64,000 nucleotides of DNA. It comes from Eledone cirrhosa (Eukaryota). Position numbers and translations under genes: made by a program. This document shows, piece after piece, positions 352-63,214 of the stretch. The notes beneath the pieces were generated by a model. That model did not search any database, was not told the DNA's origin, and worked only from the letters and a program-made list of their open reading frames with translations. Within the stretch, counting starts at the first letter, position 1. The number at the start of each line of letters is the position of its first letter. The stretch is taken from assembly GCA_964016885.1 (NCBI GenBank), contig OZ024742.1, forward strand, positions 172,980,001-173,044,000, read 5' to 3'.

Positions 352-416
352 TATATATATATATATATATATATATATATATATATATATATATATATAT
401 ATATAGGGAAATGTTT

Positions 417-512
417 AACCCCGACAGCAGAGCTCAAGCCGTTTCGACGGCTATTTCTGGACTAAATTAGAATTTTTAGCGTGGTAATAAATAGCCGAGC
501 ATTTCAGGGGTA
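417..512 (-). ncRNA. Type I hammerhead-like motif, family A (degenerate core)
   Basis: Minus strand reads ACCC-CUGAAAU-..CGGCUAUUU..AAAUAGCCG-UC-GAAA-CGGC(UUGAGCUCU)GCUG-UC-GGGGU. Stems I, II and III pair, but the core deviates from CUGANGA. Confidence 0.6.
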
Positions 513-559
513 ATTCCTTATACGGGAAGATTATAGTTGTCAAAAGGATTGGCCAAAAT

Positions 560-742
560 TGTGTGTATGTGTGTATGTGTACATGTCTCTATAGAGATGT
601 TTTCAACTTGTACAAACATGATTTGGCACTGATTCTCCCTAGGCATTTAGACTGAAAAACTGACCACTAATTGATTTAACATATGTCTTTAACCCATTGA
701 TATCAAAAGGTATTTTGTTAGCAGCTCGTGTGTATTTGTAAG
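560..742 (+). mobile_element. Family B dispersed repeat end abutting (TA)n
   Basis: Reverse complement of ~2643-2826. Confidence 0.7.
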
Positions 743-792
743 TATATATATATACACACACACACACATATATATATATATATATATATATA

Positions 793-1925
793 TAATTGGA
801 AATCAGTAAAATCGAATCTCTGGCGTTTTGCAAGTAAATTCGGCCTACTTATATGAAGTGATGAGTTAGCAAAGCACTCGATAAGATAGGTCTCAGAGTT
901 ATAACATACGTTTAAATAGCTTGACAAATCGAACATTGTGGTAGGCTAAACTAACACACAATATATACCAAAGGTACGATAAAACTAATCAGGTTGAGAA
1001 AAATACACCTGGACAAATCAAACGTGCATTTGAGTGTTTCTCTGACTCCGAAATCAAATAACAGACATACTTGAATGGCAAGGTCGTGGTATTGGTGACT
1101 GAACAGAGGACTCAGTTTATCAACAGGTTTTTGTTCTGCTTAGAATCAGGAGTGATAAAATATGATGCCGCTCTTATGACTGATAATCGAATCTATATTT
1201 ATCACGTGTTAATTCCGGCAAGGGAAATAACGCCTGGTTTTTGGCGGGTCAATTCAAATGCTAGCGAAAGGAAATATTTTAATTTCCGCTAATCATCATG
1301 ATAAGCTCTCGACTAGAAGTTATAAAACTAACACAAATAATTAACCAATCAACAGAATTTTCCAATTAAATTAATTGGTTAATTATTAAATCTAGGAGAT
1401 TAATATAATTGGAAATCAGTAAAATCGAATCTCTGGCGGTTTGCAAGTAAATTCGGCCTACATATATGAAGTGATGAGTTAGCAAAGCACTCGATAAGAT
1501 AGGTCTCAGAGTTATGACATACGTTTAAATAGGTTAACAGATCGAACATTGTGGTAGGCTAAACTAACACAATATATACCAAAGTAACGATAAAACTAAT
1601 CAGGTTGAGAAAAATACACCTGGACAAATCAAACGGGCATTTGAAGTGTTTCTCTGACTCCGAAATCAAATATCAGACTTACTTGGATGACAAGGTCGTG
1701 GTATTGGTGACTGAACAGAGGACTCAGTTTATCAACAGGTTTTCGTTCTGCTTAGAATCAGGAGTGATAAAATATGTTGCCGCTCTTATGGCTGCTAATC
1801 GAATCTATAGTTATCACGTGTTAATTCCGGCAAGGGAAATAACCCCAGGTTTTTGGTGGGTCAATTCAAATGCTAGCGAAAGGAAATATTTTAATTTCCG
1901 CTAATCATAATGATAAGCTCTCGAC
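793..1925. repeat. Tandem repeat, ~614-bp unit, ~1.85 copies, bounded by (TA)n
   Basis: taattggaaatcagtaaaatcgaatctctggcg occurs at 793 and 1407. Both copies extend to ...aagctctcgact. Confidence 0.9.
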
Positions 1926-2063
1926 TATATATATATATCGAGACAGTGTGAGATTTTCTTTAGAACTGCTGGACTAACAACCTAGCAGTTCCCTCAAACA
2001 CTGATGGTGATTATCGCTAAATATTGATGTTGATTTGGTTATCAATATTAATATTATTGGTCA

Positions 2064-2186
2064 CCCACTGAAGAATTATAAGAGCCCACTTGAATAAGTA
2101 TCTGTTGATCTTATACAAGCTTCTACATAAATTGGTATAATTTCACCCAACTTGTAGAAATCTTATAGTGAAACGAGTCGTCTGGG
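2064..2186 (+). ncRNA. Type I hammerhead ribozyme with ~77-nt stem II insert
   Basis: CCCA-CUGAAGA-AUUAUAAGA-[77 nt]-UCUUAUAGU-GAAA-CGAGUCG-UC-UGGG. The core is intact and the cleavage triplet is GUC. Confidence 0.8.
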
Positions 2187-2359
2187 AAGTGATATGTTTG
2201 ATATATCTCATATGAAATGATACAGCCAATTTTCCACACGATACAATTAGTTAGCACCCCGAACGTTCAATTAGGAATATACTCAGGTATTTCCGAATGT
2301 TTGTTGAGTGAGTTGGAATTTGGCCGGAGTATCACTATTAGGTTTCCCCGATTATGTAT

Positions 2360-60709: not shown

Positions 60710-60837
60710 TATATATATATATATATATATATATATATATATATATATATATATATATATATATATATATATACACACATATATATATATATATATATAT
60801 ATATATATATATATATATATATATATATATATATATA

Positions 60838-61357
60838 TAAGTATGTACACGTACATAGGTATATGTATACAGACGTACAGTAGTATGTATATATATATAT
60901 ATATATATATACATACATGCACACATATATATATATATCTACGTATGGATTTACCGAACATTTATTATAATGCCCGGTGTGTTTGTAATGAAACATCCCG
61001 TATTAAGCCGTAGTGTCCAGCAACCATTGTTGCTCGTTTGTTCAACACTGTCAAAGGAACGCTTGAAACTAGTACAGCGTTCCTTTGTCAGTGTTGAACA
61101 AACGAGCAACGATGGTTACTAGACACTACGGCTTAATACGGGATGTTTGTTTACAAACACACCGGGCATTATAATAAATGTTCGGTAAACCCATACGTAC
61201 ATATATATATATATATGTGTGCATTTATGTATATATATATATATATACATACTAGTGTACGCCTGCATACATATATGTATGTACGTGTACATATTTATAT
61301 TTAAGTAACAGCCGTACTAAGAGTGTTAAATGAAATCTCGTTTCATTTTTTCCTTTT
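60838..61357. mobile_element. Family E fold-back element centred on the HHR cleavage site
   Basis: 60940-61063 is the inverse of 61076-61200. The centre reads ggaacgctt-gaaactagta-cagcgttcc. Confidence 0.88.
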
Positions 61358-61727
61358 ATATATATATATATATATATATATATATATATATATATATATA
61401 TATATATATATATATATATATATATATATATATATATATGTATATATATATATATATATATGTATATATATATATATACAACTGATGTCTGTGTGTGTGT
61501 CCTCATTTTTGCAAAGTCTATACAAATTCACATTTCTATTCCGAGTGAATTCAAACTTGCATTTATATATTCCCCGCGGTCTAAAGATATTAACTGCAGG
61601 TGTTTTTTTTTCAATTTTCTGTTGTTAAAGGGGGGTTAGGCGCCGATTATCCATCTCCGTCGCGCTCTTATAATATCTGTCTGTATACCTGCCCCTCTGC
61701 ATTACGACATTCTGACAAATATTGATG

Positions 61728-61927
61728 ACGTATTATGTTCGCTATTATCCGTTCATTACCAGGGAACATCTTTACTAACCAAAGTATCGTCTCCTGTTTT
61801 CCTTCGGTTGCAACGTTTTTCGAATTATTTACTTCTGCGTTCACAGATTGTAGTTTTTAGTTTCAGTAGGTCTCGTTACCGGTGAAAGCAACGATTCTTT
61901 GCTTAAACTTTGATCTGTTATTTTAAT
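61728..61927 (+). mobile_element. Family D copy with a degenerate HHR
   Basis: Similar to 16474-16675. Confidence 0.7.
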
Positions 61928-62707
61928 CTATATATGTATATATATAAAACTGAGGAATGATGCATGTATGTATGTATATATATATACTTGTATGTATGTA
62001 TGTTCGTGGGGTAAGTTTTTAATTAATCTTTGTATTCTGAAATATCAAAATACAACAATTCTTTGCTCACTAGACTCGGGAATATCGTGACAGAAGTTTG
62101 TGAAAGTTACACAAATATTGTCGTATATTTTACCAGAGCAATCCTTATTTATATTTTACATTTTACATTTAGTTACATCTCAATATAACATGGCTAAAAT
62201 TCAAATTTTGCAAAGAGAAGAAAATGGACAAATGAACTAGATACATCTCACAATAACATCTCCACCACCCCCCCACCCCCCACCACCACCACCACATTTA
62301 TATTATCCTATCTAGACTAAAGTCACCGACCTGTTGTCAAACTCTCTACTTCGTGTTGAATGTGTATGTGTGTGTATGTATATATATATATATATATATG
62401 TATGTATATGTGTGTATATACATCACTCAGTCAAACGACCAGATTTCAACCCCAACATCTACAACAACAACACTGGCACTAATGTTTACAGCAACAACAG
62501 CTTCAGAATGAATTGAAATGAACATTTACAACAACAACAGCGGCATCAAACGATAAATAAAAACCCCAAAATACAAAATAACAAAACACACACACACACA
62601 CACACACAATTCAATAACACCAACTGCCACCACCACACCACCTACACCACCACCACCATCCACCATCACGAGCGATTGGGCCTTAAGAAAACAACAACTT
62701 TAATAAT

Positions 62708-62860
62708 AATAATTGTTCTGCTTTTGTCACGGAGCCAGCGATTGTACCAGCGCATTACTGGTGCTCTCTTTTGTTGACTCCGTGGGGATGAAAGGCAAGG
62801 CTGACCTTTGCGGGATTTGAGCTCGGAGCGTGGAGGGCCATAGCTCTATACTGTAAAGCA
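62708..62860 (-). mobile_element. Diverged tRNA-derived SINE
   Basis: ggatgaaaggcaaggctgacctttgcgggatttgagctc. Confidence 0.75.
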
Positions 62861-63051
62861 ATTATAATAATACTGAACGGTAACAAGAAGGGCTTCAAAT
62901 ATACGAACTCTTTTGAAAGTCAAGAGTTGACATAATCTTGTAATCTTGTATCAGTAATGACAGTAATATATATACATATATATATATATATATACATATA
63001 TAGATAGATAGATAAATATACACGGGTGAGTATGATTGTGTATAGAAGATT

Positions 63052-63214
63052 ATATTAATAAGAGGAATTCCAACTTTTTCTGATTTACTCGTTTTATTTA
63101 CAATCCTTTAACATTTTTTTAAATTTATAATGGTATTATAATACCATTATAAATTTTAAAGGATCGTAAATAAAACGAGTAAATCAGACAAAGTTGGAAT
63201 TCCTCTTATTAATA
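63052..63214. repeat. Fold-back mini-element
   Basis: attaataagaggaattccaacttt..ataatggtattataataccattat..aaagttggaattcctcttattaat. Confidence 0.88.

What the first reader, a model, noticed from the sequence alone, without database searches (positions are those of the whole stretch)
406..63214. Window-wide architecture: (TA)n - inverted 3' end - 3' end - (TA)n insertions
Seen: at least 12 insertions consist of two arms with 3' ends pointing outward, mostly into (TA)n tracts (8322, 15681, 15958, 20006, 21090, 32901, 37505, 40730, 45362, 46414, 60838, 63052). Arms range from ~20 bp to ~750 bp. Known: PLEs often carry inverted pLTR copies and some target microsatellites. Inference: each side of a break in self-complementary (TA)n primes reverse transcription independently, and the two cDNAs are joined by microhomology. 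This would give a steady source of long genomic hairpins.
Basis: partly seen in the sequence, partly recalled or inferred. Interest (0 to 1): 0.75.

Follow-up and report, generated by a model that had tools for sequence, protein, structure and literature searches.

The report
Penelope insertions primed from both ends
These mirror-image repeats in TA microsatellites are real insertions of Penelope-like jumping genes, a layout already described, and their ends and joints across about a hundred copies suggest that both sides of the cut DNA likely start copying the element's RNA separately, at two fixed points, which would explain a long-unexplained shape.

Summary
Real. Those with coding remnants are Penelope-like elements (PLEs), mostly Hydra clade. 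The layout (inverted pLTR, tail, TA target) is published. Tested genome-wide in two families: one arm ends at the pLTR end, the other at the tail end. In family A, 76 of 88 anchored arms have a partner; 43 are staggered, 23 nested, 10 equal, and 5 share no sequence, which cDNA fold-back cannot make. One insertion joins two families. Raw reads of other individuals hold such joints at family level. This supports priming from both ends, in line with published in vitro data. Joining by microhomology is weak: 9 of 41 clean junctions have 2 nt or more (null 16%), and 35 of 76 carry inserts. Short arms stop at an initiator-like site, likely the RNA start. This scan noted the same idea before, in this and other genomes.

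The parts
406..562 (-). Family A (Hydra-type PLE) tail-less arm ending at site 2 in (TA)n; no head-to-head partner found
8322..8506 (.). Two-arm insertion: arms 8322-8380 / 8409-8468, 38-bp tail on the right, TA both sides; family and polarity inferred only
15682..15838 (.). Family A: tail-bearing left arm, 19-bp right arm that ends short of site 2, TA both sides
15948..16367 (.). Two-arm insertion with outward hammerhead-like motif; family inserts in AT-rich DNA, not (TA)n
20007..20120 (.). Family A: left arm ends at site 2 in TA; right arm broken off within the tail
21082..22284 (.). Old inverted pair (66% identity), no TA at the ends, no other copy in 1.17 Mb; PLE origin inferred from a hammerhead-like motif seen by eye
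32901..33094 (.). Family A complete short unit: site-2 arm, 4-nt loop, site-1 arm with 79-bp tail, TA both sides
33875..36997 (+).
37507..38957 (-). PLE with Neptune-type zinc finger before the GIY-YIG domain; long arm with 50-bp tail on the left, inverted arm 38793-38957 (nested); hammerhead motif at 37749
40730..45331 (-). Hydra-type PLE; long arm with 90-bp tail on the left, 714-bp inverted arm on the right (nested); a dispersed 190-bp repeat and a 22-bp tandem array lie inside
45363..46200 (.). Family C two-arm insertion, 49-bp tail on the left, hammerhead-like motif at 45652
46328..49084 (+). Hydra-type PLE; endonuclease remnant 47091-47780 belongs to the right, tail-less arm; left inverted arm 46328-47100 carries the 86-bp tail (staggered); arms 97% alike, one hammerhead motif in each
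60840..61356 (.). Family C two-arm insertion, 13-nt loop, 53-bp tail on the right, TA both sides
63000..63211 (.). Two-arm insertion, 4-nt loop, about 51-bp tail on the left; polarity inferred only

Best explanation
These are insertions of endonuclease-bearing Penelope-like retrotransposons whose two arms end at two fixed sites of the element, likely because both DNA ends of a cut in (TA)n prime reverse transcription separately, one at the pLTR end (site 2) and one at the tail end (site 1). Shown: the two fixed ends, their pairing one of each per insertion, independent 5' truncation of either arm, and junction types. Inferred: the GIY-YIG nuclease cuts both strands of the TA tract; each 3' end pairs by a few TA-like bases with the RNA; each cDNA runs 5' until it drops off or reaches the RNA start (family A position 1502, an initiator-like motif); the two cDNA ends are then joined blunt, by 1 nt, or after short templated copying, more than by true microhomology. 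The templates are usually the same transcript species (one RNA with two pLTRs, or two like RNAs on a dimer) and rarely RNAs of two families.
For: Family A, 88 arms anchored at site 2 plus TA (from 90 of the first 92 of 2,813 exact matches): 76 have a head-to-head partner, 63 of which reach site 1; 43 staggered, 23 nested, 10 equal; by more than 20 nt, 15 staggered and 3 nested; 5 share no sequence. 62 of 76 junctions are distinct. Family B: 6 staggered (2 of them full-length units whose inverted arm has the tail) and 10 nested among 29 loci, the rest single, equal or unresolved; there the tail is the sequence that follows the pLTR in front of the ORF. L255 joins a tail-less family A arm, stopping at A's 5' limit, to a tail-bearing family B arm, TA on both sides: 1 of 141 head-to-head pairs. 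The commonest junction occurs in both mirror forms, 41 and 27 exact copies. RAD-seq reads of 3 other samples show strand-change joints at 1502-1514, some to partners at 1568-1599, and a roughly tenfold or greater rise in depth at 1497-1522. PMC11167929 (parts 1-2 of 4 read): a purified PLE protein nicks and extends both strands, starts at two RNA sites that bracket the tail, and is predicted to be a dimer.
Against: No intermediate or empty allele was seen; all is read from finished insertions. Arms within an insertion are more alike than other copies in 8 of 10 long pairs and show no excess of subfamily differences, as fold-back also predicts. Nested and equal cases (33 of 76) fit fold-back as well. 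The heterologous case is single and could be a deletion between neighbours. 13 of 76 partners do not reach site 1 and 12 of 88 anchors had no parsed partner. Tail arms that stop before site 2 do not pile up at site 2, so a one-RNA collision is not shown. In PMC11167929 the start site is not homologous to the cut DNA, unlike the TA-like homology here. The anchor set is from one contig and favours young copies. The window's own junction at 32944-32959 was not spanned in the runs laid, which hold only 0.29-0.36 of the words of a window stretch.
Confidence: 0.68

Rival explanations
1. One priming event, then the cDNA (or an antisense RNA) folds back and is copied; the nuclease resolves the hairpin at site 2 (self-priming and EN-mediated resolution as proposed in PMC3846280 and PMC8557442).
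For: Arms share subfamily; many junctions are near-perfect hairpins with a 0-6 nt loop and templated inserts; 33 of 76 are nested or equal.
Against: It cannot give arms with no shared sequence (5 of 76, more), a tail on the short arm only (window 33875, 46328; L256-L258) or a two-family unit, unless all are later deletions. Snap-back may still be how two separately primed ends are joined.
Confidence: 0.17
2. Ready-made hairpin units are copied whole from master copies (a non-autonomous fold-back element, by RNA or as DNA).
For: One junction recurs in 7 of 76, with 41 exact copies genome-wide.
Against: 62 of 76 junctions differ; the recurrent junction exists in both mirror forms and with different tail alleles; arm lengths form a continuum up to full length.
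Confidence: 0.07
3. Two separate insertions into neighbouring TA tracts, or DNA-level fold-back repair, later fused by deletion.
For: Copies cluster at shared TA tracts (L109, L139, L242); secondary deletions are seen (L130, L134, L166, L179, L181); 4 junctions with 4-9 nt overlap fall on the element's inner inverted repeats.
Against: It does not explain the same family and subfamily on both sides in 140 of 141 pairs, one end of each kind, or 5' ends piled at 1501-1508.
Confidence: 0.06
4. Assembly or amplification chimeras.
For: The window's own junctions were not confirmed in reads.
Against: Arms differ by 3-34%; ends are family-specific over thousands of copies; family-level joints stand in raw reads of 3 other samples.
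Confidence: 0.02

Closest known systems
EN+ Penelope-like element insertions with inverted 5'-truncated pLTR and one-sided tail (Pen2a_Av, PMC3846280; Fig. 2 legend and text of PMC8557442; D. virilis Penelope, PMC2377424; passages read)
   Same: Head-to-head inverted copy at the 5' end, palindromic or short-loop junction, tail at one end only, partial tandems.
   Different: Tails here are 38-144 bp, not 30-40; the papers ascribe the shape to self-priming or EN resolution and do not count staggered, nested or non-overlapping arms in the passages read.
Hydra clade of C-terminal EN+ PLEs (PMC8557442, section 11 read)
   Same: RWK, DKT, CxCx5C linker, CxxC and CxH around the conserved E and N, no CCHH, about 3 kb, (TA)n target.
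   Different: No canonical hammerhead found in families A and B; copy numbers are in the thousands; no tree was built.
PAc (Poseidon of Anolis) in vitro mechanism (PMC11167929, parts 1-2 of 4 read)
   Same: Both strands nicked and extended; two internal RT start sites that define the tail; AT-rich target; predicted dimer.
   Different: That text does not link the two sites to the two arms of one insertion; its start sites lack homology to the target, while site 2 here has 2-5 nt of TA-like sequence.
LINE-1 twin priming (as described in PMC11702581, passages read; original model recalled)
   Same: Both target ends prime; the result is a head-to-head inversion; rare insertions come from two RNAs.
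   Different: In L1 it is a minority route, the second site is found by chance microhomology and the two pieces barely overlap; here it appears to be the main route, both sites are fixed and the arms mostly duplicate the pLTR, making hairpins.

Membership tests
EN+ Penelope-like elements | RT followed by C-terminal GIY-YIG endonuclease in one ORF | tested here: met
   Broken frames 34089-36327 with YRDD and YYIG motifs; Pfam GIY-YIG only below cut-off (E 0.007-0.012) and no RVT_1 hit on these frames; same order in L250. Not testable for the non-coding sites 8322, 15958, 21090, 45362, 60838, 63052.
EN+ Penelope-like elements | pLTR in tandem before the ORF, inverted copy at the 5' end, one-sided tail | tested here: met
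   Full units L249 and L250; tails confirmed as element sequence.
EN+ Penelope-like elements | Hammerhead ribozyme motif in the pLTR | tested here: inconclusive
   Core motif in 4 families by own scan; none among the 150 Rfam rows shown of 258; none in family A. Activity not testable.
EN+ Penelope-like elements | Target-site duplication | not testable with these tools
   Hidden inside (TA)n; no empty alleles available.
Hydra clade | RWK and DKT motifs in the N-terminal RT region | tested here: met
   Family B frame 34089-34496; motif list.
Hydra clade | CxCx5C linker; CCHH absent; CxxC and CxH by the conserved E and N | tested here: met
   CxCx5C in 47091, 43096, L023 and L250; CxxC and CxH in 35995 and 47091.
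Hydra clade | Insertion into (TA)n | tested here: met
Hydra clade | RT phylogeny groups with Hydra | not tested
   No reference set fetched.
Neptune clade (37505 family) | CX2-5CxxC finger before a GIY-YIG with two inner cysteines, C-terminal | tested here: inconclusive
   Motif present in frame 38143-38592; frame broken; Nematis not excluded; no tree.
LINE-1 twin priming | Second priming at a chance internal site by microhomology, pieces not duplicated | tested here: not met
   Both sites are fixed and arms overlap in 71 of 76. It works like twin priming without being the L1 form.
MITE / fold-back DNA transposon | Symmetric terminal inverted repeats and a constant interior | tested here: not met
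   One-sided tail and 62 different junctions in 76. The pair 27134-28735 is such an element and is not part of this finding.

The most novel reading that the evidence does not exclude
For Hydra-type PLEs, double priming is the normal route: a dimer cuts both strands of (TA)n and starts one cDNA at the pLTR end and one at the tail end, each just before a small conserved RNA hairpin, can carry RNAs of two different families, and joins the cDNA 3' ends directly, by pairing a cap-derived base or a mismatched six-base pseudo-palindrome at the RNA start. That would explain inverted pLTR, tail and palindromic junction in one step and seed some tens of thousands of near-perfect long hairpins in this genome.
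Probability: 0.4. Interest if true: 0.72.

Novelty: new variant of a known kind. Interest (0 to 1): 0.52.

Why it matters
How PLEs make their inverted pLTR and one-sided tail is called unresolved in PMC8557442, and PMC11167929 leaves the later steps to be validated. Counts of staggered, non-overlapping and two-family insertions favour priming from both ends over self-priming and give direct predictions for the existing in vitro system. The process is also frequent: 50 signature pairs in 600 kb, 7 of them with arms of 100 bp or more, 95% identity or more and a loop under 100 bp, roughly 35,000 per 3 Gb by simple scaling. Such hairpins could feed double-stranded RNA pathways or DNA fragility; neither was tested.

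Tried and rejected
Rfam: only sub-threshold microRNA-like hairpin hits among the rows shown, nothing for family A. Pfam: weak hits on short frames were below cut-off and ignored. An apparent arm-specific C/T difference at position 1505 in the set was dropped as selection by the query; the long-arm test found no excess of subfamily differences (8 of 96 differences at shared polymorphic sites). Tandem restart from the RNA start to site 2: only 2 exact cases genome-wide, so not a main route. Cap-derived G before 1502: 14 G, 15 C (12 from the recurrent junction), 12 T, 1 A; suggestive only, as most G can be read as the partner's base. No RNA holder listed. Locus-specific read support not obtained. 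Two of 12 sampled blocks had no TA tract and no inverted pair; they stay in the 600 kb. Literature: 7 searches found no paper that states twin priming for PLEs; subscription journals, supplements and figures were not seen and may hold such a model. PMC9977147, PMC12910113 and 10.64898/2026.07.22.740005 (passages) added nothing on mechanism.
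Full report
Observation. The window is AT-rich animal DNA (35% GC) dense in microsatellites, from a 3.0-Gb assembly. After masking simple repeats, self-comparison shows an inverted arm pair at each of the 12 listed places. Measured one by one, arms are 17 to about 720 bp and 66-97% alike. With the unpaired outer piece included, 9 of 12 have TA within 7 bp of both ends, 1 on one side, 2 on neither. That piece, 38-121 bp on one side only, is part of the element: other copies carry it in one run with the arm. 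In twelve 50-kb blocks sampled on eight contigs, 50 of 201 local inverted pairs show the signature, against 1.7 expected and 15 of 223 direct pairs; TA lies on the 3' side only in 37 of 64 family hits and on the 5' side only in 2. Orientation is not random.

Identity. Where coding remnants survive they are PLEs. The unit 33875-36997 has RT remnants followed by a GIY-YIG domain. It carries RWK and DKT; it or its relatives and three other families carry the CxCx5C linker; two show CxxC and CxH in the nuclease. These are the marks that PMC8557442 gives for the Hydra clade, which also targets (TA)n (section 11). The 37505 element has a Neptune-type finger. Pfam matches were below cut-off and no tree was built. 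Six sites have no coding part; four families have an outward hammerhead-like motif.

What is known. PMC3846280 (passages) describes inverted pLTRs, an optional tail and palindromic junctions, calls head-to-head the most frequent arrangement and proposes self-priming. PMC8557442 (passages and one section) puts the tail at either end, most likely from EN-mediated resolution, and calls for mechanistic work. PMC11167929 (parts 1-2 of 4) shows nicking and extension of both strands, two internal start sites that bracket the tail, and a predicted dimer. PMC2377424 (passages) maps an internal promoter with an initiator for Penelope. Seven searches found no paper stating twin priming for PLEs; subscription papers, figures and supplements were not seen.

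The test. Fold-back of one cDNA predicts that the second arm lies within the first. Two primings allow staggered arms and arms with nothing in common. Family A (window 406, 15682, 20007, 32901) was mapped on L013: site 2 is position 1560, site 1 is 1639. 23 of the 40 best matches to 15682-15820 had an adjacent inverted arm within that short query. An exact pattern for site 2 plus TA has 2,813 matches, control 0. I parsed 90 of the first 92 listed places, all on contig C1 (two were already held); after dropping one overlapping locus and two duplicate rows, 88 anchors remained. 76 have a head-to-head partner within 40 nt and 63 of those reach site 1. The tail-less arm reaches further 5' in 43, the tail arm in 23, equal in 10; by more than 20 nt, 15 and 3. 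In 5 the arms share nothing (L125, L140, L147, L194, L197); more such cases appear. Long arms are of both kinds. Family B gives 6 staggered and 10 nested among 29 loci, and two full-length units show that the tail is the sequence following the upstream pLTR, with the inverted arm ending at site 1 and the long arm at site 2. In the window, 33875 and 46328 are staggered, 37505 and 40730 nested. Among 141 TA-anchored head-to-head pairs in 1.3 Mb, enriched for family A by selection, 140 are of one family; L255 joins a tail-less A arm to a tail-bearing B arm.

Ends. At site 2 the element continues with 2-5 TA-like bases in 8 families, and at site 1 with AT in family B, which fits pairing of a TA 3' end with the RNA (inference). 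A small hairpin follows the site in 3 of 9 tails examined, a lead from earlier notes.

Junctions. 62 of 76 are distinct. 35 carry inserts or are complex, many copied from nearby element sequence; 17 are blunt, 15 overlap by 1 nt, 9 by 2 nt or more. Among the 41 without inserts, 2 nt or more is 22% against 16% in two nulls; 3 nt or more is 4 of 41 against 3-4%, and those four lie on inner inverted repeats of the element. Microhomology joining is thus a minor part, unless a cap-derived base is counted, for which the evidence is only suggestive (a parallel is noted for L1 in PMC11702581, passages). The 5' ends of both arm types pile up at 1501-1508, with few between 1411 and 1500, and read depth jumps there. 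Position 1502 is the A of a YYANWYY initiator-like motif (consensus recalled), so it is likely the RNA start. The commonest junction is a six-base loop that occurs in both mirror forms, 41 and 27 exact copies, with different tail alleles; two cDNA ends that both stop at 1502 could pair as a mismatched pseudo-palindrome and resolve to either form (inference).

Against. Arms within an insertion come from the same subfamily: more alike than other copies in 8 of 10 long pairs, with no excess of shared variants. That fits one transcript species but also fold-back. A third or more of the cases fit either model, secondary deletions occur, the two-family case is single, and no empty allele was seen.

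Artefact. Arm divergence and fixed family ends exclude assembly chimeras as a class. RAD-seq reads of three other samples from one study show strand-change joints at 1502-1514, some to partners at 1568-1599, and loose TA ends at both sites; several joints come from one or two read starts and may be single loci. The window's own junction at 32944-32959 was not spanned; the indexed runs hold only 0.29-0.36 of the words of a window stretch.

Earlier notes. The scan reached the same reading in this genome and in others; these are unchecked notes and are not counted as support.

Verdict. A real, genome-wide and largely known PLE layout. It works like L1 twin priming but is not that form. The value lies in a testable answer to an open mechanistic question; the hairpin consequence is untested. 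Interest 0.52.

Noticed in passing
window 2783-3333: A 551-bp palindrome (95%) that runs through its short TA tracts into flanking DNA and folds inside a dispersed 190-bp repeat; it has no tail and may be a DNA-level fold-back. It touches a second inverted pair, 560-771 / 2614-2825.
   Followed up: partly
window 27134-28735: Tc1/mariner-type DNA transposon: 200-bp terminal inverted repeats, TA at both ends, Sleeping Beauty HTH match. A look-alike of the finding that works differently.
   Followed up: partly
window 23176-26787 (-): Broken Helitron-like frames with a Pif1 helicase domain.
   Followed up: no
window 49657-52168 (-) and 14109-14807 (+): Broken non-LTR retrotransposon frames (RVT_1 match at 51071-51805) with a similar C-terminal region in both places.
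   Followed up: no
window 13471-13656, 26713-26902, 43620-43813, 53197-53377, 55017-55208, 55865-56315: A very abundant 190-bp dispersed repeat, SINE-like (label recalled, not tested); it sits at the same place (about 1315) in several family B copies.
   Followed up: partly
window 59415-60713 and 790-1927: Tandem repeats of about 535 bp (2.4 units; hammerhead-like motif at 59503) and about 610 bp (2 units) between TA tracts; possibly retrozyme-like.
   Followed up: no
window 57846-58503 and 58469-58548 / 59343-59422: A second, single-arm copy of the 37505 family, whose 3' tip and TA tract recur inverted 800 bp downstream.
   Followed up: no
L138:1508-1780: A family A hairpin that continues into the tail-bearing 3' part of family C; a second chimera, deletion not excluded.
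   Followed up: partly
L177 and L178: Two neighbouring family A copies, back to back, with the same junction; likely a later inverted duplication.
   Followed up: no
L013:1569-1590, window 46328-46413, L249:1247-1270: A small CTC-stem-loop-GAG hairpin begins 6-9 nt behind site 2 (families A and 46328) and behind site 1 (family B); no full match in 6 of the 9 tails examined. Lead taken from earlier notes.
   Followed up: partly
L056-L060 and L086-L090: Two sampled 50-kb blocks with no TA tract and no local inverted pair (GC 48.5% and 37.2%), unlike the other ten; probably satellite or other special sequence.
   Followed up: no
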